64,000 nt of DNA from Azolla caroliniana. Lineage: Eukaryota > Plantae > Polypodiophyta. The translations under genes and the position numbers were made by a program. The notes beneath the pieces were generated by a model. The model saw only the letters and a list, made by a program, of their open reading frames with translations. It was not told where the DNA came from and did no database searches. How positions within the stretch are numbered: position 1 is the stretch's first letter; each line of letters starts with the position of its first letter. Shown here in pieces: positions 17,920-57,088 of this stretch. The DNA lies in NCBI GenBank assembly GCA_043228905.1, contig JBHGNT010000005.1:20336001-20400000 (forward strand), given 5' to 3'.

Positions 17920-17950
<31 letters not shown>

Positions 17951-22532: not shown

Positions 22533-22723
22533 TACTAATTAACCTGACGGGATCAGAGAGCTGCTGCTTCTTCGTCGTCTTTCCTTCCTACCTGTTACAA
22601 TGCGGACCATGATGGAGATACACAGAGAGGTGCAGAAGAAGCATCTGCAGGAGGGGGGGTATACAGGCACATATATATATATATATATGCAATTTGTGTG
22701 GCTGAAGAACAATCAAGCTCGTT

Positions 22724-29670: not shown

Positions 29671-29673
29671 AGT

Positions 29674-30037
29674 TGGACCAGCTCACTACAAAATTAGTGG
29701 GGACTCATGATTAATACACCACTGTGTAAGAGAGTGGATTATATTCTCTATTTGGTCTGAGTGTAACATTAAATGTGCATGTCAGTTGATAGTAGTGGAG
29801 ATATTCCTTTTTTGTCAACTAACTTGTCATTTAATATGACCCAACTCCCTAGATACAGGCTAGTGCTAGATAATATTTATCTTGAATTCAATGGCACATA
29901 CTTCAACACTAAGTACATTGTAACTTGCCCACAAAATATTATAGTTGACTTGATTAGCCAATCCTATTACCTGTTTTACTCTTTCCTACCATTGTGTCCT
30001 ACGCATTTACAGTTTCCTAGATTAACACCATATCGCC
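29674..30037 (-). repeat. Inverted internal fragment of the Copia C LTR (matches 31034-31397 and about 35896-36259)
   Basis: The same spurious ORF MCMSVDSSGDIPF occurs at 29773+, 30987- and 35786-. Ends traced by eye. Confidence 0.9.
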
Positions 30038-30046
30038 ACACCTAAA

Positions 30047-31545
30047 CCCCCCACACCATCTTCACTCCTCCTTATCCCTCAAAAGAATTTGCTTCTTAAG
30101 TCCACATCAACCATCTCGCCGATTACCACCAAATTCCTATATAAATAATAGCAAAATGATTATAAAATGTTTCCTCATCCCCTCATATATTTGCTTCAAC
30201 CCCCACACCATCGTACTCATCCTCTTGTCATGGCAATATGCTATAAAGACAATAACTACATGACAACAACGACAAGAAACCTAAGAAACCTACAATCTTC
30301 TTCATTCCGTCCACCTAACTTCTCACCGACATGTCTCATCACAAACATTCCGCCACAATCGTCATATTCGGAGTTGGCGGCGTAATTGGTGAGTTGTCGG
30401 CTAGTGGAAGACGACTCACGTATCGTCTTACGACACTCTTCTTCGTGGTGACTGATTTTTCCACAATATCCGCATTCGACCGAGTTTTGTCGGCTCGGAC
30501 CGGAATGGAAGCTCCTCCTTCTTCCGAAGGTTCCTCGATGGCTTCCGTCTTGATGCCGAAATTGTGAGTTATTTTCGTAAGTCGGGCTCATCCACCTCGT
30601 CCTTGGCCGAATCGGCCTCTTGCTCGGTCGCGCCCTCTTTCTCCGTTCGAATGCGTGTAGTGCATGTGGCCTTTCGAGGTGTTGCTCCTTGTTCGAACAT
30701 GGTTTTCTTTGACCAACAACATGGGTTGAAGATCGACGAAGACGGCGGATTCTCCCGTGGTAATACAGTGGTCCTCATCGTGCCGAACTGTGGTGCAAGG
30801 CCGCTGAGGCATATTTGCACCATCTCATCATCGTCCACATTGACACTTATCGAGCCAAGCGAGTCGAAAAGCTCCTTGATCTTCAAGGTGTAGCTCGTGA
30901 TGGACATATTGTTGGATATATAATCAATGATCAGCCCCAAGTTGTAAATCTATCCCCATATGTGCTCTTAGAGTGCACATTTTGTGTTAGCGCCCCAAAT
31001 GAAGAGCGGCTATTGTGCAACTCGACCATATGGGGCGATATGGTGTTAATCTAGGAAACTGTAAATGCGTAGGACACAATGGTAGGAAAGAGCAAAACAG
31101 GTAATAGGATTGGCTAATCAAGTCAACTAGAATATTTTGTGGGCAAGTTACAATGTACTTAGTGTTGAAGTATGTGCCATTGAATTCAAGATAAATATTA
31201 TCTAGCACTAGCCTGTATCTAGGGAGTTGGGTCATATTAAATGACAAGTTAGTTGACAAAAAAGGAATATCTCCACTACTATCAACTGACATGCACATTT
31301 AATGTTACACTCAGACCAAATAGAGAATATAATCCACTCTCTTACACAGTGGTGTATTGATCATGGGTCCCCACTAATTTTGTAGTGAGTTGGTCCAGAT
31401 CCCATCTAAGCTCTAAGGTGTGAGCGCATGGGTGAACTACCATTGTGAGCTACTATCATATGTAATAGAAGTTTTGTTTTCATATATCCATCTCTATGGT
31501 TGTAACTCTATATACCTATCCAATTGATTCTCAATATTTCTAATA
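30047..31545 (+). repeat. First copy of a direct duplication of about 1.5 kb (second copy 34908-36407)
   Basis: Paired near-identical ORFs (30167/35028, 30331/35192, 30569/35443) and continuous alignment by eye with scattered SNPs. Confidence 0.93.
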
Positions 31546-32522
31546 CATATCCCTTTGTTGGATGTTGTTCAACTCCTGGCGGAGTTGAAGCTTTCTCGTG
31601 GTTGTGTTGGCGGCGAAAATCTTTCGTAGATTCTCCCACGCTTCCTTTGGCGCATCGGCTTCTCGAATGTAGCCGAGCATGTGTTTGTGAACACATTTCG
31701 CCAAGCAATACATCACTCGGCTTGCCACTTGCTCCCATGTTGCATAGTCGGCGTCTTTCAGGTCAGGTCTATTTTCTTGTGCTCCTTTGATGCAACCCCA
31801 ATAGCCTTATCGACAAGGTATTGGTGCATCTTGTATTCCCAAGATGCAAAGTTGTTTCGATCCAACTTCTCGCTAGGGAGAGCGCTCCCCATTTGAGTAT
31901 TCATTATGTCGATGAAGCTTTCTTTCTTCTTTTCCTTCTCTCTCGAACACGAGATTTGTAGTTGCACTACGATAGCGATGAATCGGTTCTTCTCGAACGT
32001 CAGCGTAGAACACAACACACGCGGATGGGCTAGATCGAGCTACCAAACCGCTCTGATACCATGTAAAGAATCGGGTATGATTCTTGTGTAGCGGAATATA
32101 TGTGTTATGTGTATGTGTGAGAGGAATTAGATGAGAGAAGAGAGAACACAAGATAGATAGATAAAGTGGAAATAGAATACTCAAGAAGAAGAAGATGTAT
32201 ATTCACAAGGAGAATATGAAATACAAAAATGTAGCATTACAAGGAGTCCCAACCGACTTAATATGAAGTATGAGGAGGGTGCTTTATATATAGTCACCCT
32301 CTCTCTTCATTAACCAGCTACAACAACCACTCTCTCTTGGGGAATGCGAAGACTCATAGTCATGGGGAATATGTAACTCATTAGTTATGTGTCATAGAAT
32401 ATGATTCTATGACACATAGTTAACGTGTAGAGAGTAGTGGTGTGACTCTTGACCTTTGAGTAATCATAGATTCTCAAAAGGTGTGTTCACACGTTGCACT
32501 ATGTTGAGCTTGATTCTCAACA
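30332..32522 (-). mobile_element. 5' part of Ty1/Copia element D: LTR 32062-32522, PBS and gag, interrupted by a solo LTR
   Basis: PBS gctctgatacca at 32050-32061. Gag SEKLDRNNFASWEYKMHQYL...ELNNIQQRDM|SITSYTLKIKEL is continuous across the solo LTR. Zinc knuckle CGYCGKISHHEEEC. Confidence 0.88.
30910..31545 (+). mobile_element. Solo LTR of Copia C with 5-bp TSD CATAT
   Basis: TGTTGGATA...TTTCTAATA flanked by catat at 30905-30909 and 31546-31550. Near-identical to the LTR at 35772-36407. Confidence 0.92.
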
Positions 32523-33568
32523 AGTTCTATGACCTAGGTAATAATTTAATTATTGAAATGGTAAGGCTTTGACACATGTATCGTAAAGTCATGGGTTCAT
32601 GATGACAACTATAGAGAGCACAACTACTACGGATGACAATGGTGCCTTAATGTCGGAGTTGTTATTTTGGGTCACTTTGTGCTCCCTTCAACAATCACTA
32701 TGCAAGCTAACCAAACCTTCCGCAAACTTTTCAACACTTGGTGAGCTAAATGCTTAGCTAACAAGAGCCATAACCAACACTGTCATAATCTCAACATAAG
32801 TCAAGGCCCCTTGATAAGAAGTTAACTGGCCTTCTTATATTGATAGAAACTCTACACCCCTAGTGTGTTCACACTTGACTACTTTATGTGAAATGGTCAA
32901 GTGATGATACACTTAATTGAATTGAATATTACAATTCATTCCCTCATTCTTTTCAAAATTGACCTCACATATTCATTATAAGATTACGGAAAATTGACCC
33001 TCACATATTCACAGGATCATTTATGGTTTTGTTCGTAAAACATTCGTCGGGTGTCTCAATCCTATGGTTGTAGTTCTCTCTTTTTGCATCAATGGGAAGA
33101 GAGTTTGATTGATTGTACGACAATAGCCAGCTCAGTGTTAAAAGATGTATTTGAGCCCGTGTTCGTTGTTTGATGATTATCTTGTACTCTTTGATGTGGT
33201 GGTTCTTGGGCTTTCCAAGTATGTGGACTACCACTTATTGCGCTTGAGAGTGAGTTGGACTTAGACCCATGTTTGAGATGAGAATCGCTCGTGTTGACTT
33301 TGTATAGTGGCCTCGAGGAGCATGAATCTTTGTTGTATACTTGAATAGGAGATCTTTAACTTAGAAAGTGTCGTTTCAATTTCTTGCATGGTCGATTGTG
33401 TTTGGCATCCTTTCCTCAGTTGTGAGGCCCATAACTCAAATTCTTGTGGATAACCTTGAGTTCTTGTAGTGTCTCTTGGTAATGATAATCAAGACTTTGT
33501 CGATCCATTGGAATACTTCCTTGCTTCGGTGTGACATTAGGAGATGTGTTGACCAGGGGTTAATGCTC

Positions 33569-34344
33569 AAATTTATCTTTGGGAGTAACTCTTAATGTCA
33601 ACCATCCTCTGTAGTACTTCATAGGGTTGGAGGTACTGGCTTTGACATTGGTGTTAGCCCAAGTCGTCTTGGTGTAAGGGGTGTGGTGCAGAGCTTGAAG
33701 AATTTTGACCAATGTGGGTTGAGTTCATCCTTTTCTTTTCTTTATTTTTTTAATTAAAAGGTTGAAAAGTATAATTAAGGCAAATGTTCCAAGGAGGCAA
33801 ACACTCAGAGGAGGCAAACACTTTCGACGATGTGAAGGCTCAAATGAGGTGAATGTTCCAAAAATGCAAACACACATGAGATGAATGTTCCAAGGATGTG
33901 ATCCCTCAAACGAGGCAAATTCTCCAAAGACGTGAACAATGTTGACAAGCCAAATGTTCAAGGATGCGAATAGGCAAACTAATGATCATTGGTTCTTGTG
34001 AATTTTGGCGCCAAAAGATGGAAAAACGCCAATGAAAGGAAAAAGAGGGCGAAGAAAATTTTGAAATTTTGGTGGTTAGTGTTATTGAGTAGCACTAACC
34101 ACAACACATATTTGGTTTGCAAAACATTTGTAATAATTAATATATTGAGATTCTAACAATGAATGTGTTTGAGGCTAGGTTTTTATTTCCTCATTTGTGA
34201 ATAAATCAAGAGTTGTCTAAGGTGGCTTCCTCATTCATATACAGCCAATCCATTCACAAGCAATCCTCGAGTTCATATGAGATCTCGATTTCCTCCTTTC
34301 TATTGAGTCAATAAAGTTGAAAGCTCATTGAAGTGGCGACAAGC
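33569..34344 (-). repeat. Right arm of the inverted repeat of about 775 bp
   Basis: Reverse complement of 27612-28387, with some substitutions. Confidence 0.92.
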
Positions 34345-35192
34345 AATAAATTGGCAAGAGTAGCCCATGAAACACCCCTCTAAACATGTAGTTCCTCAAA
34401 CAATACTTGTTCCTCAGCTAGCAATCCATAGTTCATGTCCATACCAATTTCGTTGATTCCTATTAAAACTGAATGAGTCTACTCTTCTCATCCCCTCATG
34501 ATGATATGCTTCAACCCCTGCCACCATCCTCACTCATCCTTTTCAAAAAATAGGAAATCTGCTTCATTTACCACATCCACCATCCCGAAAGTCTAATACC
34601 TACAAATCCAGTGTGCTCTCCTTCTCCCCTCATGAAAGTATGATTCAGCCCCCTACACCATCTTCATTCATCGTTATCAACAATATAAAGTCTGCTTCAT
34701 TGTCAACATCCATCTCTCCATTTTCAACAATTTCTTATACCTACCCAAAAATAGAATAAATTCACTCTCCTCAGACCCTCATAAAAATATGCTTCAGCCT
34801 CCAACACCATCTTCACTCATCATTATAGATAATCTACATCATTTTCAACATCAACCATCTCTCCATTTTCAGCAATTTCCTGTACCTACTCATAATATTC
34901 TGCTTCACCCCCCACACCATCTTCACTCCTCCTTATCCCTCAAAATAATTTGCTTCTTAAGTCCGCATCAACCATCTCGCCAATTACCACCAAATTCCTA
35001 TATAAATAATAGCAAAATGATTATAAAATGTTTCCTCATCCCCTCATATATTTGCTTCAACCCCCACACCATCGTACTCATCCTCTTGTCATGGCAATAT
35101 GCTATAAAGACAATAACTACATGACAACAACGACAAGAAACCTAAGAAACCTACAATCTTCTTCATCTCGTCCACCTAACTTCTCACCGACA
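34345..35192 (-). repeat. Degenerate tandem sub-repeats (cttcaacccc..caccatcttcactcatc, about 5 copies), possibly an LTR starting TGTCGGTGAG at 35192
   Basis: The motif recurs at about 34510, 34645, 34792, 34903 and 35055. The Copia D gag stops exactly at the TG boundary in both duplicated copies. Confidence 0.55.
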
Positions 35193-35771
35193 TGTCTTAT
35201 CACAAACATTCCGCCACGATCGTCATAGTCGGAGTTGGCCGCGTAATTGGTGAGTTGTCGGCTAGTGGAAGCCAACTCGCGTATCGTCTTACGACACTCT
35301 TCTTCGTGGTGACTGATTTTTCCACAATATCCGCATTCGACCGAGTTTTGTCGGCTCGGATCGGAATGGAAGCTCCTCCTTCTTCCGAAGGTTCCTCGAT
35401 GGCTTCCGTCCTGATGCCGAAATTGTGAGTTGTTTTCGTAAGTCAGGCCTCATCCACCTTGTCCTTGGCCGAATCGGCCTCTTGCTCGGCCGCGTCCTCT
35501 TTCTCCGTTCGAATGCGTGTAGTGCACGTGGCCTTCCGAGGCGTTGCTCCTTGTTCGAACATGGTTTTCTTTGACCAACAACATGGGTTGAAGATCGACG
35601 AAGACGGCGGATTCTCCCGTGGTAATACAGTGGTCCTCATCGTGCCGAACTGTGGTGCAAGGCCGCTGAGGCATATTTGCACCATCTCATCATCGTCCAC
35701 ATTGACACTTATTGAGCCAAGCGAGTCGAAAAGCTCCTTGATCTTCAAGGTGTAGCTCGTGATGGACATAT

Positions 35772-38700
35772 TGTTGGATATATAATCAATGATCAGCCCC
35801 AAGTTGTAAATCTATCCCCATATGTGCTCTTAGAGTGCACATTTTGTGATAGCGCCCCAAATGAGGAGCGGCTATTGTGCAACTCGACCATATGGGGCGA
35901 TATGGTGTTAATCTAGGAAACTGTAAATGCGTAGGACACAATGGTAGGAAAGAGCAAAACAGGTAATAGGATTGGCTAATCAAGTCAACTAGAATATTTT
36001 GTGGGCAAGTTACAATGTACTTAGTGTTGAAGTATGTGCCATTGAATTCAAGATAAATATTATCTAGCACTAGCCTGTATCTAGGGAGTCGGGTCATATT
36101 AAATGACAAGTTAGTTGACAAAAAAGGAATATCTCCACTACTATCAACTGACATGCACATTTAATGTTACACTCAGACCAAATAGAGAATATAATCCACT
36201 CTCTTACACAGTGGTGTATTGATCATGGGTCCCCACTAATTTTGTAGTGAGTTGGTCCAGATCCCATCTAAGCTCTAAGGTGTGAGCGCATGGGTGAACT
36301 ACCATTGTGAGCTACTATCATATGTAATAGAAGTTTTGTTTTCATATATCCATCTCTATGGTTGTAACTCTATATACCTATCCAATTGATTCTCAATATT
36401 TCTAATATGGTATTAGAGCTGAGAGGTTGATCTAGATTAGGTATATACGGGTAGTTGCTATCTAGCAGCACAAAAAGAAAGAAAGAAAGAAATAGAGAGA
36501 GTATCAATGGCCTTGTCCACGAATGTTGCGGCTGCTCCACTACGCATTCGTCCACCTCCATTGTCTGATGGAAAGCTAGATGGAACCAACTACACTCTAT
36601 GGAAGTTCAAAATGTCTGCCATTTTGGACTCCTACGAGTTGTTGGAGACAATCATGGGACCCACAGGAGGAGACCCTGAACCAATGGTGACCTTTGACCC
36701 TGCACACCCTACCACATCAATCCCTCCAAATGTTGATCTACTTCGAGCTTGGAAGAGAAGGAATGTTGATGCGTTGTGTACCATAGTCATTGGTGTATGT
36801 GACTCTATACTAACATTAATGCAACATACAACCATGGCACATGAAGCTTGGAGCATATTGGCCAGCCAGTATGAAACCAAAAACTATACAAGGATACAAA
36901 ACCTCGAAAATCAGCTTGCTGTAGAGAAGCTCGTTGATGGAGAGAAAGTAGAATCCTTTGTAAAATGGATTAAGGATATTCAAGATCAGCTAGCAGTTGT
37001 TGGAGTAGTTGTCTCTCCAGAGGATATGGCTCGTCGGTGCATTCGAGTACTTCCTTCCAAGTATGATGGCATTGTGACAACATTGAACACTCAGGTTCGA
37101 CCCACTCCTTTAAAATTTGATGAACTAAGTGCAATGCTGCTTGAAGAGGAGCTTCGGCCGAAGACAAGAGCAGGAAGGGAAGATTCGGCAATTGTCTCTA
37201 GGACCAAGGGTAAAGGGGCATCCAATTCAAACAATGCGAATAGGATACCAAAGAAGAAGAAGTTCAATGGATCGTGTTTCTAATATGACAAGAAGGGTCA
37301 CACAATCAAGGATTGTCGGAAGAAGATGGCGGATGAGAAGAATGGTTCTAGTAAGACTTCTTGGAGAGAGCCCGAGTCCGCCAACAATGTCGTAGATGAG
37401 CTTGAGTTATGGATCACAATTGAAGAAGTTTGTTCTTCAGTTGACACTCAAGTTGTCGACGGCTCTTGGATTCTCAATAGTGGAGCATCTCGACATATGA
37501 CCAGCAATCATGACTAGTACAACTCTTGGACACCTCTACAAGAGGCCATCAATGTTGTGGTCGGGAACAATGCTCGATGTCCTGCCAAAGGAACCGGAAC
37601 CGTCTCCCTCAAAGCAATGACCGGCGGGACAAAGCATCTCTCTCAAGTGTTGTACGTGCCAAATCTCAATTATTCAGGCAAGAAACCTTTAGTGCTGCAC
37701 TTCAGAACCTTTGGGTGTACGTGTTACGCACATGTTTCAGATGTGAGCAGAAAGAAGTTGGATGCTAAAGGCAAGAAGTGTATCTTTCTCGGATATAGTG
37801 AAGAGTCAAAGGCCTATCGACTCTACGATCTAGAGGCAAGAAAGATATTGACAAGCCGCGATGTGGTGTTCAATGAGGAATGACCACAACTAACTGAGAA
37901 CATCGATTCTCAAGTTATCTCATCAACCGAAGAGGTATTCCCCCCAATCCCGACCCACTGTCTAGAAAAGGAAGCTGAACCATCTGATGGTAATGGCTCG
38001 CTAGTTCAGCCTATGCTAGTGCCACATGTAAAGAAAATACCTAAGTGGGCTCAACAACTCTTCAATGACCGTACTCCTAAAGTTGAGTTTCCTGAAACTT
38101 CAACTAATGGATTACGAAGATCAAGAAGAATACATGAGCAAGGGAGAACCTCTGACCACGTTGTCAACATGGCTCTAATGGTGGACATCATAGGCTCAGT
38201 GAGTGAGCTGACCTCAGTGGAGGAAGCCATGGCCGACCCGAAGTGGAAAGAGGCGATGATATCAGAATACGATAGCATCATGAAAAATGACACGTGGGAG
38301 TTGGTAGAGTGGCAAACAAAGAGGAAGGTGATAGGCACCAAGTGGGTGTGGAAAGTAAAGTATAAAGCTGATGGTTCTGTGGAGAAATTTAAGGTCAGGC
38401 TAGTAGCGCAAGGATACTCCCAAATTGAAGGGTTCGATGTACAAGAAACATTTGCCCCGACAGCTCGCATGACAACAATTTGAATGGTCATAGCGTTAGC
38501 TGCTTCAAGAGGATGGCCAATTTATCAAATGGATGTCAAATCAGCATTTCTGAATGGGCATATCAAGGAGGAGGTATGCGTGACACAACCACCAGATTTT
38601 GAGATGCCGAATTTGTTACCCGGCCGGCAAAGGAGCTAAGGACGCCAAGACCAGGGTGTGAAAAGGGGAATTGTTATTTGGGAATCTGTTGTAATTACTA

Positions 38701-39612
38701 GTCTTAATATATTAATATATGAGAAGATGTGGACAGACGAACCGGAATCGATATGCCGATTCGGATCCGGACCGATCCCGAATAGGTGCCGGTTGGCACC
38801 GTTTTGTACTTCGCACCGGTGACCTATATAAAGGCCCGGTTACAATGTAGTCATCAACGAAGAGTAATATAAACCTTTTGTTTAATCATTGAGTATTGTT
38901 CACCGTTCTGTGCTTATTGTATATCTTACGCGTGTTAATGACATATTACTAAGTAACCGATTAAGGTCCAATTAAGCGTTGTGTCGTAAGTTATCTCGCC
39001 GTAACACCCTTTGGTGAAGTGTCTTAAGTGAACACCCTGTGTTAGGCTGTTATCTGGCCCTGAACACCCTGTGTTAGGCTGTTATCTGGCCCTAAGGATT
39101 AACAGAATTCAGAAAACAAAGTTTGCAAGCTGAAGAAGGCATTGTATGGTCTAAAGCAAGCACCGAGAGCTTGCAACAAGAGGATAGACAGCTTCTTACA
39201 ATCAATCGACTTTAAGCAATGTGCTTCAGATGCAAGTATGTATGTCAAAATGAAGGACAGGAAACAAGTCATCATCATCATTTACGAGGATGATCTAGTA
39301 CTTACTGGTGACCATGAAGAGTGTATTGGCCAAACACAAGAGTGTTTGAAATGATAGACTTGGGGATTTTACACTACTTCCTTGGAATTGAGGTTTGGCA
39401 AACCTCGGTTGGCATCTTCATGTCACAAAGGAAGTACGCAATAGAGATCTTGAAGACCTTTGGGATGATGGATAGCAAGTCGAAGTCGACTCCAATGGAA
39501 TCAAACTGCAAGCTATCCCAAGAAGACCTGTCACCAATGGTTGACATAAGGAAGTATAGACAACTATTAGGAAGTCTAATTTTCCTATGCAACACTAGGC
39601 CAGATATTTATT
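35772..39612 (+). mobile_element. Ty1/Copia element C: 5' LTR 35772-36407, PBS, gag, PR, internally deleted integrase and 3'-truncated RT
   Basis: PBS TGGTATTAGAGC at 36408-36419. Gag KLDGTNYTLWKFKM, protease WILNSGASRHM, a jump from YVPNL to YSGKKP near 37668 (integrase core lost) and SH3 KCIFLGYSEESKAYRL. RT motifs KVRLVAQGYSQIEG, QMDVKSAFLNG, LYGLKQAPR and YEDD, ending at TRPDI. Confidence 0.93.
38614..39104 (+). mobile_element. 491-bp solo LTR inserted in the Copia C RT, TSD GAATT
   Basis: TGTTA...TAACA ends with gaatt at 38609-38613 and 39105-39109. Removal restores FEMPNSENKVCKLKK. TATA box cctatataaa and an internal tandem duplication of about 32 bp. Confidence 0.9.
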
Positions 39613-40480: not shown

Positions 40481-40614
40481 CATTATTTGTGGTTTTCATA
40501 GGTCATCATGGCTAAAGCCATTGTAATGTTTTAGCTTAATAATTTCCTCATGTATGCAGAATTCTACTAATGAAGAATATTTGTTTTGGAAAAAAAATAA
40601 ATCTTTTGTATTAC

Positions 40615-40690
40615 AATGCATGGTTTAATGGTAAGGGTTCAACCCATGTAACACAAGGTCATGGGTTTGAATCTTTTTGGAGCCATATCA
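40615..40690 (+). other. tRNA-derived (SINE-head-like) sequence with pol III A/B boxes
   Basis: A box TGGTTTAATGG at 40621 and B-box-like GGTTTGAATCT at 40664, at tRNA-like spacing. No cloverleaf could be built. Confidence 0.45.
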
Positions 40691-42682
40691 TGACAACATG
40701 TGTTCAAATTCACAACCATGGATATCTATTGTTTAATATTTCATTAAGAACACGTGTTTAACACATGGGAGGACAACAATTAAGGCTTCATGGTGACAAT
40801 TACTAAACAGATGTGTTTCACTTAAGGTTCCTGGCTCTTTGTGCGTTCAACACTTGGTTGTCTCATGGCAAGAAGCACTCTTGTTATGTGTATGGAAACT
40901 ATCATCTAATAGAGAGCATTGTAATTCTTTGAGAAAGAGTTACTTGTGTCTTATTAGTTATTATGTTGGCCTTGAAAGGGGAGATTGCACTCTTAGTTTA
41001 ATCATTTGTTTCGTTTGGGGGTCAAAGAGGTGGGAGATATAGTTGAGGCTCCATCTCAAAGAATTTTAGAGTTTGTTGAAGCGTGATAATTATTATGGGT
41101 TTATTTGGCAACAACTACAAAATATTGCACTGATGCAAGGTCCTTTACCTTTACAAACAAGAGAACACCGTAGACTGATTGATTGATTGGTGTTTACAGG
41201 GTCAAACGTCGTTTTTACAAGTGACTACTAATATTTTATATCATTGCTCCATCAAGTCTCTTGGATGGCTATCATCTAAGGCTGAAGAATAATGGAAAAT
41301 ACACAAATTTGATAATGGGTGGTGGTAGATCTTAAAATGTCATTAAATTCTAAATTGCCACTTGTACCGAAGGTCTTCATTTAGAGAGTTTTGATTGGGG
41401 GTTTGCCTTTGGGATTAGCTCTAAAGCGTCGTGGACTAGCAACTGGCACATGCTTCTTTTGCACAATTCAAATGGAAGATAGTGCTCATCGTTTTATACA
41501 ATGTCCAATTGCTTGCTAGATTTGGAGTTACATTTCTCAAATTTGGCAAGTTTGATCACAATGTTATTTGACGCCTAAACATTGGGTGTTTGCCCAATTT
41601 ACCCAGGTTAACCCAAAATCAAAGATAGTGATTATTTTCCTATTTCTAAGGTATTGGGGATTGTGTCATAATTGGGATATGTATGCAGAATGCTTTTGTA
41701 TTTGATGGTAGGCATGGAGTGAAAGCATATCTGCGAAAGTTAACAGAGAGTACCAATGTTGCCTTTTGACGGCTAACATTGCCTGTCATGAGAACGATAT
41801 TCCAAAAAATTTGCCTGTCAAATGACGGTTTGTCAAAAAAATTGCCCTTCAAAAAGTAAATACATCGAATATTCGTACTAAACAATATATTATACCCTTC
41901 TATCCTTTGCATCTTTCCAAATTTCATATACACAAGGGAAAAGTATCAGGATACCCCTGGAAGTTCGCCTATTTACCAGAATGCCCCTAGAAGTTCTAAA
42001 TTTACCAAACTACCCCTATGTCCAAAAAAATACACTTTATAAAGTAATTATACACTCAAATATACAAGCCCTATTTACCATAATACCCTTCAAACATAAA
42101 TTTCTTTACTTAAACAACAATGTGCAAATACATTCAGAAAGATCCTACATTAACTATTGTTTTTTGTATCTTCTCATTTTCAATGGCTAAGCCAATACGA
42201 GTCATCAGATCATGACAATGATGGTAGAGATCATTTGAAAAGGTATTATGTGGTCACTAGCTTTGGCACATTTGCTACTATCATGTCTATGTTACATGTT
42301 ACAAATCAGACCACAATAGCCATTAATTGCCATAGAATTTCTTCATAGTCACGAGCATAAGCAATTCCCACAGTTGTTAACCCTGTATCGCTGCTGGGGA
42401 CACCTAAGCTCTCTAGCATTGACGAGCATGGCAAGGTGGCCCAAAGAAAGCATCAAAATCTGGCACAAGAAAGAACGCATGGGATCTCATCTGCTGCGAT
42501 GATTTATTAGGCATACTCAAAGTTATTGGGGCATGACCACATCCATAGCTCAACAGAGTAAGAAACCCCCTCTTGTCTCCTTCATTCATTCATTCATTCT
42601 TCATTGATTTGATTAATCCATCCTGTCTCCAGGCACGTACGCCATACATTCAAAATCGAGGGGCGGGGCAGGATCAGTGACC

Positions 42683-44380
42683 ATGCCATCCCGTCGCCGC
42701 CTGCTGTCGATGGTAATGATGGTCGCCATCGCCATCGCCATGGCCTTCATGGTAAATCCCTCCCTCTGCGCCTACCAGAACGTCACCACCCTCCTCCGAA
42801 ACCATCCTACCTCCAGGTCCTTCAACACCCTGCTCTCCAGCTATGGCGCTGCCTCTACCATCAATAGCTGCACCACAATCATTGTGATTTGCCCCCCCAA
42901 TGCCACCACCGATGCCTTCTTCTCCGCCTCCCGCCTCTCTGACGACTGTCAGACCGTCTTCAACGTCCTAAGCTTCCATGTCCTGCTCGATTACTCTGAT
43001 CCCTCTTCGATGGCTCTGTAATCATCACCACGCTCTTCCAGACCACTGGCCTCTCGGCCGGACTCAACGGCTTCCTCAACTTGACCACCCACCGCTCTAC
43101 ATCTGCCCCTCCCGTATCTTCGCCATTGGCTTCTGTGCTAGGTTCTCTGGAGAGCTTCCCTTTCAACATAAGCATACTCTCCATCTCTGTTGTGCTTACA
43201 CCCACAGGAGCTTCCCTTCCACCACCATCGCCAGTCAATGTCACAGACATCCTTGCTTGATCAGGGGCAGGGAATTTCTCCACCTTTGTCTCGTTGCTAG
43301 TATCATCTGGGGTTGATAAGATCTTCCAATCCCATGATTGACAATCTTCGCACCCACCAATAGTGCATTCGATCGCATGTCTGGATCGATGGCGTATGCC
43401 AGCCTCTCCATGGCATAGAGGGTCTTGCTTCTCGAGTTCCATGGGATTGCTTCGTTTTTCCCCACACAAGAGTTGTTGGGTTCCGCAGGGTCTCAGCCCA
43501 CCCTAGCTACCACATCAGGCAATGCTGATTATAAGCTCTCTTTGACTCGATCGACAAAGATTGGTGTGGTTTCAATCATAACCAATGGCAATGGAAACCC
43601 GGCCCCGATAATGGGAACGTTGTACTCTAGCAATCTCGTGTCGATCTTCTCCATTGATTTGTTACTCCTTCCTGCAAAAATCTTTCTGTCGATTGCAACA
43701 TCGCCATCTCCGTCCATAACATTAGCCCCAGGAGCTAGTGGACTTGTTGTTACTCCTTAGGGCCAGACAATAGCCTAACACAGGGTGTCTACAGAAGAAA
43801 CTTCACCAAAGGGTGTTACGGTGAAACAGAGTTAGACCGACGATTAATCAGACCTTAATCGGTTACTTAAGCAACATATCATTAATCTTAATACACGCAT
43901 AAGATAGAAAGTAATTAGCACAGAACGGTAATCAATACACAGAGATAAGACAATAGAGCTTTATTAATTATCCGTCGTCATTTACAATGTAACCGAGCCT
44001 TTTTATAGATCACCGGCTTTGCATACAAAACGGTGCCAACTGGCATACTAATATGAACTGGTCTGTATCCGGATCGGCATACCGATTCCGGTCCGTCCGT
44101 TCACTTCTCAAAATATACTTAATTACTTAAATCCTAATAACAGCTCCCGATTATTCTTGCCCTTTCACATTCTGGACTATCCTCCACTCCTTGCCGGCTG
44201 GCTAACACTTGCATTGTCTCCGCCTAACTCGAGTCCAGCTATTTTGCAAGTGATGTCTCCGGCATAGGCTTCGGCCCTAACAATGTAAACTCCTAAATTA
44301 TCGAGTCTAACATCATCACCACCAAGTTATTCGCCCCCTGCTCCACCTGCAGACAAACATGGCCTCAATAGTGTTTCACA
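42683..44380 (+). pseudogene. FLA: Fasciclin-like arabinogalactan protein (two FAS1 domains, group C-like) pseudogene inside the Pack-MULE
   Basis: Signal peptide, then FAS1-1 QNVTTLLRNHP...FNTLL...INS...FNVLSFHVLLDY...TTLFQTTG...ELPFNISILSIS. FAS1-2 VNVTDILA...FSTF...LTIFAPTNSAF...LLEFHG...VSIFSIDLLLLP, then an S/P/A-rich AGP tail. Frameshifts near 43018 and 43340, a stop at 43258 and an LTR insertion. No GPI signal seen. Confidence 0.9.
43748..44207 (-). mobile_element. 460-bp solo LTR (same family as 38614-39104) inserted in the FLA AGP tail
   Basis: TGTTA...TAACA ends with TSD cttgt/cttgc. Shares blocks with 38614-39104 in reverse (ggccagacaatagcctaacacagggtgt, acaaaacggtgccaac). Removal restores APGASGLALSPP. 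Confidence 0.88.
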
Positions 44381-44929
44381 AATAAAAGTTGTTGGGGCAA
44401 TTCCATTTTCATCACCTCCTCCCTTTGTCCTAGGCATATAGGCAGAAAATTCTCCTTCTTCTTTAGGGGCAATATTGACAGAAAACGAAATATTTTCTCG
44501 AAATATCTGAGCAATGCATGCAGGGAGGATTAAGTCATTCTCATCATAGCTATTTCTAGTACGGAGAGGAATATGAAACGCTTCAATTTCTTCTCCCTGA
44601 GAACAACCTTGTTTACCATGAAAGGATCTTACCTGATATTACAATTCAGCTTCTCCTCATATAATTCACCATTTACTTCTGCGTTGCGTTTGAAGGGTAT
44701 TATGGTAAACAGGGCTTGTAGATTTGAGTGTATAATTACTTTATAAAGTGTATTTTTTTGGACATAGGGGTAGTTTGGTAAATTTGGAACTTTTAGGGGT
44801 ATTCTGGTAAATAAACGAAATTCCAAGGGTATCTTGGTACTTTTCCCTATACACAATCCCATTATATTTCTTCAATGTGTGGCCCATTCAATGAGACTCG
44901 CATTAAATCATCTAAATGCAAACATGAAG

Positions 44930-45340
44930 TTTTCAAACTACCACCCATGCAGGTGTAGTGTATATTCAGACAATGTATGCTCTTCTATTGTAGGATGTTG
45001 TTTATATGTTGAGTATGGTCTTCAGTACATGCGAAACCAAATGCAAACATGAAGTTTTCAAACTACCACCCAGGGTGGACAACCAAGAGTTTTAGCATAT
45101 GCGGAATCAAGTTAAGCTAACTTTGTCTACAACATGAAGTTTTTAGAGACCATGACAAGGGGCAAAGGAATATGGGTTTCAGACGCTTCTAACTACAAAT
45201 GTGGCCATTTGGAATGCAATCATGATAGAATGGACGTTTCAATGAAGCACTAACTTGTTTTTACATGTTGGAGATTGTTTTCACCTTTATATGTGGTCTC
45301 CTAGCTTGTCGTAACAAAGGTGTTATTGGCAAATGCTGAG
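44930..45340 (+). pseudogene. Very decayed PPR-like fragment
   Basis: cttctaactacaaatgtggccatttggaatgcaatc at 45186 (LLTTNVAIWNAI) shares 19 nt with the PPR fragment at 40044. Confidence 0.4.
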
Positions 45341-45433
45341 AGTTGTATTCATGGATTATAATTATCCTTATCTTGCCAAATGCCAAAGCTTATATTTGGT
45401 CTTGTCTTTCATAATATATACTTGTGGAGATGA

Positions 45434-45483
<50 letters not shown>

Positions 45484-45549
45484 TATTTGTATACTGCCTC
45501 TGGCCTTTTATTAATACCAATGGAGCATATGTTTTATGGAATTTTTTAT

Positions 45550-45830
45550 TATTATCTAAATGTTCTATATTCAATCGATTTCTTTTCATCTCTTTGATGA
45601 GATTTTGCTTAGAGAACCCTCTCTCACACGAAACCGTGCTAGATGGAATAACCAAAGTAGCGTGCCATAATTTCATCAAATGAGGGAAACCAGTCCTTCA
45701 TTTTGCAAAACATACGTCAAGCTTCATGCATAATATAACCTTCACAATTTAAACGTAAAGTGTCAACAAACCTATAGAGTTCCATTTCACAAGCCTTTGC
45801 ATCATGTAAAATTTGAAGACATGCATTGAC
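45550..45830 (-). mobile_element. hAT transposase C-terminal dimerisation-domain fragment
   Basis: FPHLMKLWHATLVIPSSTVSCERGFSKQNLIKEMKRNRLNIEHLD, a typical hAT dimerisation signature. Confidence 0.85.
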
Positions 45831-46635
45831 CTCAATGATCAATTATAACTTGTGTGTGAGAAATGCAAAGTTGTAAAGTTGTGGATGTATTCCATCAATG
45901 ATCAAATATAACTTGTGTGTGAGAGAGAGGGTGGGAAAGAAAGAAAGAACAAAGTACAACTTGATCAAAGCAATGAGCTTGAGAAAGAAAGAATTACAAC
46001 TTGATTAAAGCAAGGGGGAGAGTGAGAGAGAAATCAAGAAAGAAGTAGAAGTGAGTGGAGGGAGAGAGAGAGAGAGAGAGAGAAAGAAAGAAAGAAAATA
46101 TGTTCTAAAGTTAAAAGAACTTCTTTTGTGGCAATTGACAGTGCTAGAGAAGTCACGAAATCTCAACCATGAAGAGAGAGAACTTTGTAAGGTCACATAT
46201 CATCATATTCGCCATTTGAATTGGTGTGTAGGGTGACATTGAGTTTGGAGTCGTCGTAGTCTTTAGATCCCATAGATAGAAGGGGTTCTATACTTTGCAG
46301 TAAGTTAGTCATGGTGATGTTTTTTTTTTCGTAATGAAAGCCATTATTTATGGAGAGAGAGAGAGAGAGAGAAATAAATAAATAAATAAAAGAGCTTAAA
46401 ATAGAAGAAGCCCTAAGTTTATTTTCACACTATGTGCACGTCCGGGCACTTCTTCTCCTTTATCATATCACATAACATATGTTTACACATTTACCCTTCT
46501 CAAATAGAACTATATGCTATAGCCTATGAATTGTAATTTGTAACTATTAACACATGTACTATTGCTTTAGCCTTAGCAAAATTTGACGGTATTAACAAAT
46601 TTTAAACCTTTATTTTTACGTTTTTATAAAATATA

Positions 46636-46953
46636 GGGAAAAGTACCAGGATACCCTTAAAAGTTCGTCTATTTACCAGAATGCCCATGGAAGGTCCAAA
46701 TTTACCAAACTACCCCCTATATCCAAAAAATTACACTTTATAACGTAATTATACACTCAAAACTACAAGCCCTATTTACCAAAGATGGAAGAAATGGACT
46801 CGAACTAGCCCTATTTACCAAAGATTTGAGTGTATAATTACTTTAGAAAGTGTAATTTTTTGGACATATGGGTACGTAGCATGGTAAATTTGGAACTTCC
46901 AAGGGCATTCTAGTAAATAAACGAACTTCCAAGGGTATCCTGGTACTTTTCCC
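46636..46953. mobile_element. 318-bp Mutator-family MITE, same TIR family as the Pack-MULE
   Basis: GGGAAAAGTACCAGGATACCC...GGGTATCCTGGTACTTTTCCC with a perfect 9-bp TSD TAAAATATA at 46627-46635 and 46954-46962. Almost entirely TIR. Confidence 0.95.
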
Positions 46954-47249
46954 TAAAATATATGCTCGTGAAGATTGACGGTTTCATTTTCAGAATAACC
47001 TTCATATACGGTTAAATTTGCCCAAAAAATGGGCGTAGAAAAAGGCAACACTGCCGGAGTAGTACGACCGCAATTTTCTTTGTTAGAGCAAGTGGAATGT
47101 TTTTTTTTTTTGCCTCGGTGGAGTGTTCGTCTTGCCTATTGGCAATTCAATACATATGTTCTGCTACCCATATATATATATGTACATAGAGTGTAGTTAG
47201 CGGGTGACCATACTCCATTATGACACACACCCATTGTAAGTTGTGTTTT

Positions 47250-47333
47250 TCACACACACACACACACACACACACTTATTGATACATATACATAATTACA
47301 TATGTGTTCTCACCAAAAAAATAGAGACTTCTT

Positions 47334-47381
<48 letters not shown>

Positions 47382-47408
47382 TGTGAGAGAGAGAGAGAGA
47401 GAGAGTGG

Positions 47409-47445
<37 letters not shown>

Positions 47446-47474
47446 TGTGTGAGAGAGAGAGAGAGAGAGAGTGG

Positions 47475-47512
<38 letters not shown>

Positions 47513-47515
47513 GTG

Positions 47516-47561
<46 letters not shown>

Positions 47562-47702
47562 TGTGTGTGTGTGAGAGAGAGAGTCTGCACAAAACAGGGG
47601 ATCCTTCTATCTCTCTCTCTGAGAGAGAGAGAGAGCGAGCAGAGGCTCTGTACGAAACAGGGGATTCTTCTGTGTGTGTGTGTGAGAGAGAGAGAGCGAG
47701 AG
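47250..47702. repeat. Compound (CA)/(GT)/(GA) microsatellite array just upstream of FLD
   Basis: Repeating gtgggt(gt)n(ga)n units read directly, and two copies of tctgYacRaaacaggggat. Confidence 0.93.
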
Positions 47703-47719
47703 ATAGCGTTCTTTTCTTC

Positions 47720-50700
47720 ATGGACTCGACAGTTCGTAGCCTCTTCGGAGAAGAAGAAGAAGAAGAAGAAGTAGTAGTAGTAGAAGAAGAAGAGTCCCCC
47801 GAAGAAGATGTGGGAGCTGATGGTGAAACTCCGATTCGGTCTGAAGCAGTAGTCACGACAACAGATCAGGTAAGTGACATTCTTGAGAAGAATACTTCTT
47901 CCGATTTCACCTCAGAGAAGAATAATGTCAAAACAGAGGATGTTAAGGCTTTGGAAGTCTCTAGAAGTAACTCGGATGATCCAAGAATTGCTTCAGAAGA
48001 GGAAGTAAAAGAAGAAGATGAAACTATTCTGGGTGGGGTGGAATCTAGAGAAGGTGAGAATGATCTTAACAGCTTTGTAAAGAAGAAAAGAAAACGAACC
48101 GAGATTGCGATAGATGAAAAGCTTGAAGGAGGAAGAGGAGGGGGGAACTTTACTGGAATTGGTAAGAGTGTGAGAGCTCTTCGGCAACAAGCAAGAGGCT
48201 TGAGCTATGATGAGAATCTTATAGATCCCGTCATTGAAAACCATCTTGGTGGCGCTTCTGATCTTACAAAAGGCAAGAAAAAGAAGCCTTTGGATCCTGA
48301 CAAAAACAAAGAGAAAGAAGCCTCCATTGCTGCTTCCATCGGGTTCCCCAAAGATTCCATAACCGAAGAAGAGATAGAATTTGGGGTCATGCAAACCATA
48401 GATGATGTTGAGCAAGACAATTATATAGAAGTAAGAAACCATATTCTTGCTCGATGGCGAGAGAGTGTTAATACATGGTTAGATGAAGCTCAGGTTATGG
48501 AAAACATCCGAATTCAACATAAGGTCCTGGTAGGGGTAGCCTATAAGTTCTTGTCCTCCTATGGCTATATCAATTTTGGGGTATCAAAAGCTATAAAAGC
48601 ATTGATACCAGAAGATGAAACTAAGTCCACAGTCATTATCATTGGGGCTGGGCTAGCTGGATTAGCAGCAGCCCGCCAGCTTTTGGCTTTTGGCCATCGG
48701 GTTGCAGTAGTAGAAGGACGAAGTCGGCCTGGAGGGCGTGTTTACACTAGGAAAATGGAAGGAGGGGGCCATATTGCTGCAGCTGACCTTGGAGGTAGTG
48801 TCATAACAGGGTTGCATGGTAACCCTTTAGGTGTACTTGCTAGGCAGATCTCGGCCCCTTTGCACAAGATCCGCGAGAAATGCCCCTTATATCAACCTGA
48901 TGGTTCACCCTTGGCTATAGATGTGGATGCAAAGGTTGAGGCTCAATTCAATAAGCTCTTAGATAGGTCTAGCCTATTAAGAGAGAAAATGGGGTTGATT
49001 GCTGAATCAATATCGTTAGGTGAAACTTTAGAAACATTGCGAGAAGATGCCAAGGTTGCTGAAGTTGTAGCTGAAAGGCAATTGTTTGATTGGCACCTTG
49101 CAAACCTTGAATATGCAAATGCAGGTCTTCTTTCCGAGCTTTCACTTGCATATTGGGACCAGGATGATCCATATGAGATGGGGGGTGATCATTGCTTTCT
49201 TGCTGGTGGGAATGTTCGGTTGGTTTCAGCGCTTGCAGATGGTATTCCTATTTTTTATGGTAAACAAGTACATACAATTCGCTATGGCTCTACCGGAGTT
49301 CAGGTAATAACATCTAATCAAGTTTTCGAAGGAGATATGGTCCTTTGTACTGTGCCTCTGGGAGTGTTGAAGCAAAAGATGATTAAATTTGAGCCAGAGC
49401 TCCCACAGAGAAAACTTGATGCAATACAGAGGCTCGGTTTTGGATTGTTAAATAAGGTGGCTATGCTTTTTCCTCGTGTTTTTTGGGGTTCTGATGTAGA
49501 CACATTCGGGCATCTTGCGGAAAGCTCAGATCGAAGGGGAGAATTCTTTCTTTTTTACAGTTATGCGGCAGTATCAGGTGGCCCCCTCTTGCTGGCTCTT
49601 GTTGCAGGGGAAGCAGCAATCAAGTTTGAACTTATGCATCCTACGGAAGCGATTCAGCGTGTCCTAACCATTCTAAGAGGTAAGGTTATTACCCATGCAT
49701 TTTCCTCAACCCATAAAATGCATCATTTGTTAGGGCAAAAGAATTATAGTTAAAGCCATTTTTTGGGTGTCATGTTCTTGTAAGCTATGAACTATGTGTT
49801 GACCATTCCAAGGGGTTACGGTTAAAGAACACTTTACACCAGTATTGCCTTTTTTCAATCTGGAGAAGGAAAATTTTAAGCCATTTTTGTTAGGACAAAT
49901 GTGTTATTTGTAATTTGGTTAGGAGAAAAGTGCTTCTAATCTGTGAGGAGTGCATGTTAAATCCATTGCTTTAGTCATGAACCCATGACGTAATGGGTAT
50001 AAAACATTAGTGTTATCACTGTAAACTTTGCAACTTCGATATTGACAATTTACTCATTTCTGTTATAATTACCAGGCATATATGAACCTCAAGGAATTTC
50101 TGTTCCAGATCCTATCCAGACAGTATGTACAAGATGGGGAGGAGACCCTCTCAGTTTTGGATCATATTCCCATGTTGCGGTTGGGGCCTCAGGTGATGAC
50201 TATGATGTCTTAGCAGAGAGTGTGGGTGATGGTAGGCTTTTCTTTGCTGGAGAAGCTACCATCCGTAGGTACCCGGCAACAATGCATGGTGCATTTCTCA
50301 GTGGTTTGAGGGAGGCGCGTAACATAACCATCCAAGCTTCACAGCGGTCTGTTGCTGAAGTTGAACGATCAATGCCAAAGGATACACAAAGTTACGGCAT
50401 GATTTTGGCAGGCTTGTTTCGTGAACCTGATTTAGAAGCCGGAAGCTTCTCAGTGCTTTTTGACCCTCGAACTAGTGAGCTCAATTCATATGTATTATTG
50501 CGGGTAGCGATTGGTATGGGTGCAAGTAAGAAAGTTAATGACATTGATCACCCTTCTTTACCGCAACGACTTTTGTCTCAACAACAATTGCATGTGCACC
50601 AACAACAGCATCTCCATCTTTACACGATGATATCTCGGCAACAAGCATTGGATCTAATGGAGGTTAAGGGAGGGGACACAATGCGCTTAATCTTCTTGTG

Positions 50701-50872
50701 TGATAATCTTGGAGTAAAATTAGTGGGTCGAAGAGGTATTGGAGCTTTAGGGGACTCTCTCGTGTCAGCTATCAAATGGGGTCAAGCTGCAAAAAAACAT
50801 TTGAATGGAGTCTTGAATGTTAAACTGCCAAAGCAGCTGGCATCAATGGATGAAAACCTGGAAGTCACATAG
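47720..50872 (+). CDS. FLD: Lysine-specific histone demethylase 1 homolog (SWIRM + FAD amine oxidase), FLD-type, about 918 aa
   Basis: Exon 1 at 47720-49679, GT-AG intron at 49680-50075, exon 2 at 50076-50872 (2757 nt, in frame). [18 protein letters not shown]...[37 protein letters not shown] and [19 protein letters not shown]|IYEPQG and RQQALDL...GGD...LGVKLVGR are FLD-like. FLD versus LDL1/2 orthology was not tested. Confidence 0.93.
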
Positions 50873-56875: not shown

Positions 56876-57088
56876 GAATGCAAGATTTTCTCTCATGTAT
56901 TGGGCCTAAATTTGCTATAGTTTAATTGGATATGAATTCACATTTGTTGTCTCAAGTAGTCATATATGTGGCATTCATCAACTGTGCACATATATGACTA
57001 CTTGAGAGTCGAGACAACACATGTGAATTCATATCCAATTAAACTATAGCAAATTTAGGCCCAATACATGAGAGAAAATCTTGCATTC
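56876..57088. repeat. Near-perfect inverted repeat (hairpin) with arms of about 95 bp and a loop of about 16 nt
   Basis: gaatgcaagattttctctcatgtattggg... pairs with ...cccaatacatgagagaaaatcttgcattc. One mismatch and a 7-nt bulge seen. Confidence 0.93.

What the first reader, a model, noticed from the sequence alone, without database searches (positions are those of the whole stretch)
41927..44856. Pack-MULE carrying an almost whole fasciclin-like AGP gene
Seen: TIRs of about 160 bp and a perfect 9-bp TSD (TATACACAA) enclose about 590 bp of upstream sequence, the ATG, signal peptide, both FAS1 domains and the AGP tail of an intronless FLA gene. Known: 9-bp TSDs with long TIRs define Mutator-like elements, and Pack-MULEs, described mainly in angiosperms, usually carry short GC-rich 5' gene fragments. 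Inference: this element mobilised nearly a full cell-wall gene, possibly with its promoter, in what looks like a non-seed plant. The copy is now disabled but could have been expressed or could supply siRNAs against the parent FLA.
Basis: partly seen in the sequence, partly recalled or inferred. Interest (0 to 1): 0.8.

Follow-up and report, generated by a model that had tools for sequence, protein, structure and literature searches.

The report
Fern transposon carrying broken cell-wall gene
A 2.9-kb cut-and-paste transposon, likely in a fern genome, carries about 90% of a cell-wall protein gene that lacks its predicted membrane-anchor end and is now broken; related copies with the same cargo exist, so this is a clear but ordinary case of a gene-capturing element of a kind already described in flowering plants and a clubmoss.

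Summary
Real. 160-bp TIRs (149/160 identical) and an exact 9-bp TSD bound one 2,912-bp insertion; contigs from 4 of 4 runs laid show the empty site with one TSD copy. The cargo matches residues 1-419 of an intact 466-aa FLA (P0001; nearest named relatives Adiantum 52-57%). It stops before the hydrophobic C-terminus (likely GPI signal) and is joined to a 333-bp foreign piece. Two sister proteins share the junction, a related organism holds both element and parent, and another holds a 7.6-kb parent-like contig. The copy has two frameshifts, four stops and CG/CHG-biased C-to-T decay. The same TIR occurs in 36 metagenome loci; 5 of 13 tested carry Pfam-level host domains (NAC, kinase, PB1, PPR), and one of them also holds a MULE transposase ORF. 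Verdict: a dead, multicopy, chimeric Pack-MULE with large cargo. Pack-MULEs are already reported in Selaginella, and TE exon capture in two ferns, so novelty is modest; I found no paper naming fern Pack-MULEs. Expression and siRNAs are untested.

The parts
41927..41935 (+). Left target-site duplication TATACACAA
   Evidence: Identical to 44848-44856; a single copy remains in empty-site contigs
41936..42095 (+). Left TIR, 160 bp, high-copy family
   Evidence: 93% to the right TIR; summed depth 130,000 in its bin vs 150-250 over the cargo in run X1; matched at 85-98% in 36 of 36 loci, over 50-178 bp
42096..42112 (+). Family subterminal sequence; relatives diverge into other interiors after about 42113
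   Evidence: Loose ends behind 42106-42117 in 4 of 4 runs; L016 and L035 align over 178 bp
42113..42198 (.). About 86 bp of low-copy AT-rich DNA, source unassigned
42199..42682 (+). Likely captured upstream region/5' UTR of the FLA, with a (TTCA)n microsatellite at 42572-42611
   Evidence: Non-TIR contigs at single-contig depth in C and D cover 42223-42550; the parent-like contig of D starts at 42638; no parent contig was seen to bridge the microsatellite
42683..43747 (+). FLA pseudogene, 5' part: hydrophobic N-terminus, FAS1-1, linker, FAS1-2, start of the Pro/Ser/Ala-rich tail. Frameshifts near 42993-43000 and 43332-43339, an in-frame loss of 7 codons near 43092, stops at 43258 and 43416
   Evidence: tblastn to P0001 residues 1-107 (67%), 109-228 (82.5%), 231-372 (84%)
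43748..44207 (.). Nested solo LTR, 460 bp, TG...CA, 5-bp TSD with one mismatch (CTTGT/CTTGC)
   Evidence: Joint 43741-44207 skipping 465 with 5 shared letters in 4 of 4 runs; 76% to a second solo LTR at 38614-39104
44208..44354 (+). FLA pseudogene, AGP tail up to codon 419 of 466; stops at 44265 and 44286
   Evidence: tblastn P0001 368-419, 73%; the parent-like contig of organism C leaves the window at 44354 (record 14)
44355..44687 (.). Second, low-copy fragment of unknown source, fused in frame to the FLA tail in place of the hydrophobic C-terminus
   Evidence: The same junction is in P0002 and P0003 and in a contig of organism C running 44207-44717; no donor found
44688..44847 (-). Right TIR, 160 bp
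44848..44856 (+). Right target-site duplication TATACACAA
46636..46953 (+). Sibling MITE of the same TIR family (318 bp) with its own exact 9-bp TSD TAAAATATA; a separate insertion
   Evidence: TIR identity 87-90%; TSD at 46627-46635 and 46954-46962

Best explanation
This is one non-autonomous Mutator-like transposon, likely in a fern, whose interior holds about 90% of a fasciclin-like arabinogalactan gene fused to a second unrelated fragment; it was likely copied to several sites by a transposase supplied in trans and has since decayed into a pseudogene. Shown: the TIRs, the TSD, the empty site, the cargo, the 3' junction, sister copies with that junction, a parent-like gene without TIRs, the nested solo LTR and the disabling changes. 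Inferred: (1) an element of this TIR family took in about 1.7 kb of the FLA locus, likely by template switching during gap repair, leaving the donor in place; (2) a further switch or internal rearrangement joined the tail at codon 419 to the 333-bp piece and removed the likely GPI signal; (3) the chimeric element was amplified before organisms A and C separated; (4) this copy landed in an older repeat, took up an LTR retrotransposon that collapsed to a solo LTR, and decayed, likely under DNA methylation. It makes no intact FLA protein today.
For: Single insertion: joint 41926-44848 skipping 2,921 bases with 9 shared letters in X1, X4 and X12, and the same skip at 41928-44850 in X3 (4 of 4 runs laid). 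Only 4 TIR copies are in the window, the other two forming a MITE with its own TSD. Parent: P0001 is intact, with a hydrophobic C-terminus like its Adiantum and Raphanus homologues (mean hydropathy of the last 18 residues 1.5-1.7, vs 0.82, 0.24 and 1.12 for P0002, P0003 and the window). A 7,562-bp contig in organism D covers 42638-43746 with 102 differing letters and is the only cover there (depth flat at 19.3). A 3,650-bp contig in organism C follows the cargo to 44354 and then matches nothing in 40500-47500. Multicopy: P0002 and P0003 share the junction, a 3-residue deletion and 13 of 185 residues with the window against P0001; up to 9 contigs overlap one cargo site in X1. Family: 36 loci carry the TIR; 26 of 26 scored outer flanks differ and are 92% A/T; 15 of 36 run on inward for 900 bp or more, and of the 13 whose ORFs I scanned 5 pass Pfam cut-offs for host domains (L008 and L027 NAM, starting at profile position 92 of 122; L028 kinase; L030 PB1; L016 PPR); L016 also holds a 538-aa ORF with the MULE domain (63 bits vs cut-off 27.6). 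Decay: 29 of 40 scored differences are C>T/G>A in this copy, 19 of 29 in CG or CHG context vs 31% expected (p=1e-4; CG alone 12 of 29 vs 15%, p=6e-4). Protein divergence from P0001 (19 of 136 in FAS1-2, 14%) lies in the low part of the range expected if 9-11% of bases change at random (means 18-21%).
Against: No genome was available, so copy number, other TSDs and the donor locus come from contigs of coded runs and from proteins, not from assembled loci; the tool warns that depth is no copy number. The empty-site contigs are mostly paralogous repeat copies (depth 227-549 in three runs), not shown orthologues. The transposase in L016 lies among partial inverted duplications and its right end is off the contig, so it could belong to a nested element. 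Only L033 shows both TIRs around a cargo and no locus shows both TSDs; low-coverage contigs can be chimeric at microsatellites. 8 of 185 residues group the window with P0001 against P0002 and P0003. The 40 sites in the methylation test are a tool-selected subset (48 rows inside the element, 8 dropped because the window letter was not clearly the odd one out), and CHG alone is not significant (p=0.15). The capture mechanism was not tested because no parent DNA letters at the breakpoints were in hand.
Confidence: 0.9

Rival explanations
1. Neighbour capture: two elements of this family inserted on either side of the FLA gene, lost their inner ends and moved the enclosed DNA as one unit (the Pack-CACTA model); a later internal deletion then removed the gene's 3' end. 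The element is the same; only the route of capture differs.
For: The cargo is long and colinear with one locus; internal deletion derivatives exist (skips of 233, 245 and 436-440 bases); the model is described in PMC6379663 (passages).
Against: The parent-like contig of organism C runs about 3.3 kb past 44354 without matching the 333-bp fragment or a TIR; the donor gene appears to have stayed intact (P0001).
Confidence: 0.2
2. Some copies are functional: a TIR or captured promoter would drive a chimeric FLA without a membrane anchor, or small RNAs that act on the parent.
For: The junction is in frame; P0002 keeps a 253-codon open frame through FAS1-2 and the new tail; upstream DNA was likely captured; about 40% of rice Pack-MULEs are transcribed (PMC5861414, abstract passage).
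Against: This copy has 2 frameshifts, 4 stops and a solo LTR; P0003 has its own frameshifting deletion; gene callers report only long open frames, so P0002 is a selected case; decay is CG-biased. In Selaginella, Pack-MULE cargo is as methylated as the rest of the element (PMC6839031, passages).
Confidence: 0.08
3. The FLA is a resident pseudogene that happens to lie between two independent TIR insertions.
For: The TIR family is very abundant and forms short MITEs (46636-46953; L023).
Against: An exact shared 9-bp TSD; an empty-site joint removing exactly element plus one TSD in 4 of 4 runs; TIR-cargo junction contigs in organisms C and D; neither TIR has a nearby partner.
Confidence: 0.02

Closest known systems
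Pack-MULEs of rice and other angiosperms (as described in PMC3310237 section 3, PMC8277862 passages, PMC5861414 passages, PMC13317346 section 7)
   Same: Long TIRs (100-500 bp) and a 9-11-bp TSD; non-autonomous; host gene fragment inside; GC-rich cargo in a GC-poor site (FLA part 0.52 vs flanks 0.34-0.36); multicopy (36% of rice Pack-MULEs per PMC8277862); more than one donor (about 20%, per the supplement of PMC13477047).
   Different: The host is likely a fern. The captured piece (about 1.7 kb, 90% of a coding sequence) is far above the median TE-captured exon of 237 bp in rice and 317-394 bp in two ferns (PMC13477047 Table S38, all TE classes), though under the maxima there (5-16 kb).
Pack-MULEs and gene-carrying GingerRoot elements of the lycophyte Selaginella lepidophylla (PMC6839031, passages)
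   Same: Non-seed plant; 20 of 57 members of one MULE family carry gene fragments; cargo methylated; GingerRoot fragments reach 1,654 bp and some elements carry two donors.
   Different: Those Pack-MULEs average 8.8 kb and are 93-99% identical to their parents; this one is 2.9 kb (2.45 kb without the solo LTR) and about 89-91% identical to parent-like contigs, so likely older.
Ssk-FB4 Pack-TIR of Drosophila melanogaster (PMC8277862, passages)
   Same: A TIR element took in most of one protein-coding gene and amplified it to several sites.
   Different: Ssk-FB4 is young, with peptide and selection evidence; the copy here is disabled and has no expression evidence.
Two-domain, GPI-anchored FLAs of the FLA8/FLA10 type (named hits; assignment to 'group C' is recalled)
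   Same: N-terminal hydrophobic segment, two FAS1 domains and a Pro/Ser/Ala-rich tail.
   Different: The cargo lacks the last 47 residues, including the hydrophobic C-terminus, and is broken.

Membership tests
Mutator-like element (MULE) | Long TIRs, typically 100-500 bp (PMC3310237) | tested here: met
   160 bp, 149/160 identical
Mutator-like element (MULE) | 9-11-bp TSD made on insertion | tested here: met
   Exact 9-mer on both sides; one copy at the empty site; the sibling MITE has its own exact 9-bp TSD; the MITE in L023 matches at 7 of 9
Mutator-like element (MULE) | Cognate MURA-type transposase in an element with the same TIRs | tested here: inconclusive
   L016 has the TIR (93% over 178 bp) and, 1.3 kb inward, a MULE-domain ORF, but its other end is off the contig and nesting is possible
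Mutator-like element (MULE) | Dispersed family with AT-rich targets (the AT preference is from PMC5861414, passage) | tested here: met
   26 of 26 scored outer flanks differ, 92% A/T; 10 of 36 loci not scored (duplicates, variant or missing ends)
Pack-MULE | No transposase inside the element | tested here: met
   Six-frame translation shows FLA pieces and short frames only
Pack-MULE | Host gene or fragment between the TIRs | tested here: met
   P0001 residues 1-419; Fasciclin above cut-off
Pack-MULE | Parental gene elsewhere, not bounded by the TIRs | tested here: met
   Intact P0001; contigs of 3,650 and 7,562 bp in organisms C and D run on beyond the cargo. The parent was not placed in this window's own assembly
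Pack-MULE | Transposition after capture (several copies with distinct TSDs) | tested here: inconclusive
   Sister copies share the junction and this copy has a TSD and an empty site, but the other copies' TSDs were not seen
Pack-MULE | Transcription or small RNAs (common, not required) | not testable with these tools
   No RNA holder was listed
GPI-anchored two-domain FLA (functional gene) | Two FAS1 domains | tested here: met
   The custom profile covers both; Pfam passes only the second in the window
GPI-anchored two-domain FLA (functional gene) | Signal peptide | tested here: inconclusive
   A hydrophobic N-terminus aligns to P0001 residues 1-28; no predictor was run
GPI-anchored two-domain FLA (functional gene) | Hydrophobic C-terminal GPI signal | tested here: not met
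   The last 47 residues are replaced at 44354/44355; judged by alignment and hydropathy, no GPI predictor
GPI-anchored two-domain FLA (functional gene) | Open reading frame | tested here: not met
   2 frameshifts, 4 stops, solo LTR

The most novel reading that the evidence does not exclude
A fern Pack-MULE family has been shuffling regulatory and cell-wall genes (NAC, protein kinase, PB1, PPR, FLA) since before several related species split, and at least one sister of this element still expresses a new, anchor-less secreted FLA chimera, or small RNAs that tune the parent gene.
Probability: 0.08. Interest if true: 0.7.

Novelty: new member of a known kind. Interest (0 to 1): 0.33.

Why it matters
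It extends a structurally verified Pack-MULE example to what is likely a fern, where I found only genome-wide counts of TE exon capture and no described family. It also gives a ready TIR probe for cataloguing cargo. The element shows how a TIR transposon can copy nearly a whole single-exon gene and swap its C-terminus in one step, which matters for fern gene-family counts (false FLA paralogues such as P0002 and P0003 are called as proteins) and for asking whether captured cargo silences donors in ferns. As it stands the copy is dead and the phenomenon is known, so the gain is incremental.

Tried and rejected
No whole genome is held, so no genome-wide TIR BLAST, synteny or DNA-level dN/dS. No RNA holder listed; this says nothing about expression. 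The search for related loci with P0001 in metagenome contigs: 573 stretches matched a pattern, 0 confirmed. Donor of 44355-44687, tested through one 94-aa minus-strand frame: PDB 0 hits; word search 0 of 38 candidates; the Atlas does not hold it; HMMER over 1.84 billion representatives gave 4 hits, all repetitive proteins whose best single stretch scores 5-6.5 bits, rejected as summed chance matches; no BLASTN match among the 36 loci. Rfam over 41900-44900: 0 matches at E up to 0.1. The piece 42972-43313 scanned was in the wrong frame for the FLA, so its blank means nothing; the right frame was scanned. The 9-base flanks of L016 and L026 are reverse complements, but I do not count this as a TSD for the transposase-bearing element: AT-rich 9-mers recur by chance (L009's flank equals the window MITE's TSD at a different site). 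None of the 36 TIR loci carries the FLA cargo. Literature: searches showed no listing on Pack-MULEs in ferns or on a captured FLA; I read listings only, not all 44 papers that hold both 'Pack-MULE' and 'fern'. PMC3813661 is not held, so the usual size of rice Pack-MULE cargo was not read at source; the '325 bp' hit in PMC6379663 is unrelated. Subscription papers, fern genome-paper supplements and bioRxiv supplements that I could not see may already list fern Pack-MULEs.
Full report
Observation. The ends are as described. 41936-42095 and 44688-44847 are inverted repeats of 160 bp with 11 mismatches, and TATACACAA stands exactly outside each. The 9-mer occurs only twice more in the 64 kb, once on each strand, and its chance at a fixed site is about 9e-6. 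The window holds two more copies of the TIR, the ends of a 318-bp MITE at 46636-46953 with its own exact 9-bp TSD, so the family makes 9-bp duplications twice in this window.

One insertion. No genome was held, so I laid contigs of public DNA runs on 40500-47500 (4 of the 14 holders listed). All four show a joint that skips 2,921 bases, the element plus one TSD, with 9 shared letters in three runs and 5 in the fourth. The flanks are high-copy, so most of these are likely paralogous empty sites of an older repeat; they still show that the 2.9 kb went in as one unit.

Cargo. A search with the second FAS1 domain found P0001 (466 aa, intact) and P0002; P0002's cluster added P0003. The window aligns to P0001 residues 1-107, 109-228, 231-372 and 368-419 at 67-84%. 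A profile from 37 other full-length homologues covers both FAS1 domains across three frames; Pfam passes only the second domain in the window. The nearest named relatives of P0001 are Adiantum proteins at 52-57%, against about 30-39% for full-length angiosperm FLAs, so the host is likely a fern. The copy has frameshifts near 42993-43000 and 43332-43339, an in-frame loss of 7 codons, and stops at 43258, 43416, 44265 and 44286. A 460-bp TG...CA solo LTR with a 5-bp TSD (one mismatch) interrupts the tail at 43748-44207; 4 of 4 runs show the form without it, and a 76%-identical solo LTR sits at 38614-39104.

The gene is not whole. After codon 419 (44354) the parent-like protein continues for 47 residues to a hydrophobic end like those of its Adiantum and Raphanus homologues, which I read as the GPI signal (inference; no predictor run). 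The element instead continues in frame into 333 bp of other DNA. P0002 and P0003 have the same junction. In organism C one 3,650-bp contig follows the cargo to 44354 and then matches nothing in the stretch, while a 679-bp contig runs through the junction into the right TIR, so parent and element coexist there. The donor of the 333 bp was not found. At the 5' end, family members share the terminus to about 42113 and then diverge into several different interiors; contigs without TIR in organisms C and D match from about 42199-42223 to 42550; and organism D has one 7,562-bp contig over 42638-43746 with 102 differing letters and flat depth. No parent contig was seen to bridge the microsatellite at 42572-42611, so that the upstream piece is the FLA's own promoter region is likely, not shown. 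That contig is colinear with the cargo, so the parent has no intron there and introns cannot tell DNA from RNA capture. Organism D has the TIR joined to the upstream piece but no second version of the coding part, which I read as a deletion derivative; skips of 233, 245 and 436-440 bases show that such derivatives exist.

Age and state. The TIRs differ by 7% and the cargo by about 9-11% from parent-like contigs. Over 185 aligned residues the window differs from P0001 at 30, from P0002 at 30 and from P0003 at 28; 13 sites group the three element copies against P0001, 8 group the window with P0001, and 9 are private. Of 48 listed variant sites inside the element I scored 40 where this copy is the odd one out: 29 are C>T or G>A, and 19 of those 29 are in CG or CHG context against 31% expected (p=1e-4; CHG alone p=0.15). 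The rows are a tool-selected subset, so this is suggestive of long methylation, not a measurement. Protein divergence in FAS1-2 (14%) is within the neutral range for 9-10% base change, near its low end, as expected if the parent branch is constrained and the element branch is not.

The family. A scan with a TIR motif returned 36 metagenome loci, all matching the TIR at 85-98%. The 26 outer flanks I could score all differ and are 92% A/T. Fifteen loci run inward for 900 bp or more. Of the 13 whose ORFs I scanned (30 ORFs), five pass Pfam cut-offs for host domains: a NAC domain starting at profile position 92 of 122 right behind the TIR (L008, L027, 95% identical to each other), a kinase (L028), PB1 (L030) and PPR (L016). 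L017 holds a nested retrotransposon and seven gave nothing credible. L016 also has a 538-aa ORF with the MULE transposase domain. L033 has both TIRs around about 1.2 kb whose ORF ends in a motif I recall from tandem CCCH zinc-finger proteins (no call supports the name). These contigs are short and low-coverage, and none shows both TSDs, so 'a Pack-MULE family with varied cargo' is likely rather than shown.

Mechanism. [quoted passage not shown] The neighbour-capture model (PMC6379663, passages; PMC13317346 section 7) is the main rival; the 3.3 kb past the breakpoint in organism C shows neither the second piece nor a TIR. Capture predates the split of organisms A and C unless the element crossed by hybridisation. 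The steps of capture are inferred; the anatomy is shown.

Comparison and novelty. The element meets the structural definition in PMC3310237 (section 3 read) and works like a rice Pack-MULE; the link to a cognate transposase and the TSDs of sister copies remain open. Pack-MULEs are already reported in a non-seed plant: 20 of 57 members of a MULE family in Selaginella lepidophylla (PMC6839031, passages). TE exon capture is tabulated for two ferns, with medians of 317 and 394 bp over all TE classes (PMC13477047 section 12 and Table S38). PMC8903248 covers rice and maize and has no mention of ferns (passages); the 2026 review PMC13317346 has none either (passages). My searches listed no paper describing a fern Pack-MULE family, within a library that lacks most subscription journals. 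The scan's own notes held no look-alike; one note on this genome also reads it as a fern.

Verdict. Observation confirmed; interpretation partly supported. A real, old, multicopy, chimeric Pack-MULE with unusually large but truncated and dead FLA cargo. New member of a known kind; interest 0.33.

Noticed in passing
window 41754-47053: The Pack-MULE and the MITE both sit inside an older 5.3-kb insertion with short inverted ends (CAATGTTGCC / CAGTGTTGCC read inward; hAT-like by recollection, no clear TSD), which itself interrupts a decayed LINE-like repeat; contigs join about 41741 to 47113-47119 in 4 of 4 runs.
   Followed up: partly
window 27611-34345: 777-bp inverted arms, 96% complementary, starting TGT and ending ACA, enclose an SH3+chromo retroelement fragment; they overlap a 1.5-kb direct duplication (30046-31545 / 34907-36407, 98%) and 367-bp inverted repeats. 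Looks like a recent complex rearrangement of an LTR element.
   Followed up: no
window 38614-39104: Solo LTR with exact 5-bp TSD (GAATT) inside a copia reverse-transcriptase remnant; same family as the solo LTR in the FLA cargo (76%).
   Followed up: yes
window 2663-9662: Full-length-looking gypsy-type LTR retrotransposon, LTRs 684 bp at 95%.
   Followed up: no
window 17369-22538 (-) and 47537-50872 (+): Host genes: a respiratory burst oxidase homologue (NADPH_Ox, Ferric_reduct, FAD/NAD binding) and a SWIRM + amine oxidase (LSD1-like histone demethylase) gene; the MITE at 46636-46953 lies within about 0.6 kb of the start of the latter's first long open frame.
   Followed up: no
L016:1568-5569: TIR followed by a PPR fragment and a MuDR-type transposase ORF, with partial inverted duplications of both the PPR piece (93%) and the transposase 5' end (95%); a candidate gene-carrying autonomous element or a nested one.
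   Followed up: partly
L003 and L020: Share the first 1,424 bp inside the TIR at 99.8% but have different outer flanks and then switch to different Ser-rich ORFs: either modular cargo or a chimeric contig.
   Followed up: no
window 56876-57088: Small hairpin element with 78-bp arms, 99% complementary.
   Followed up: no
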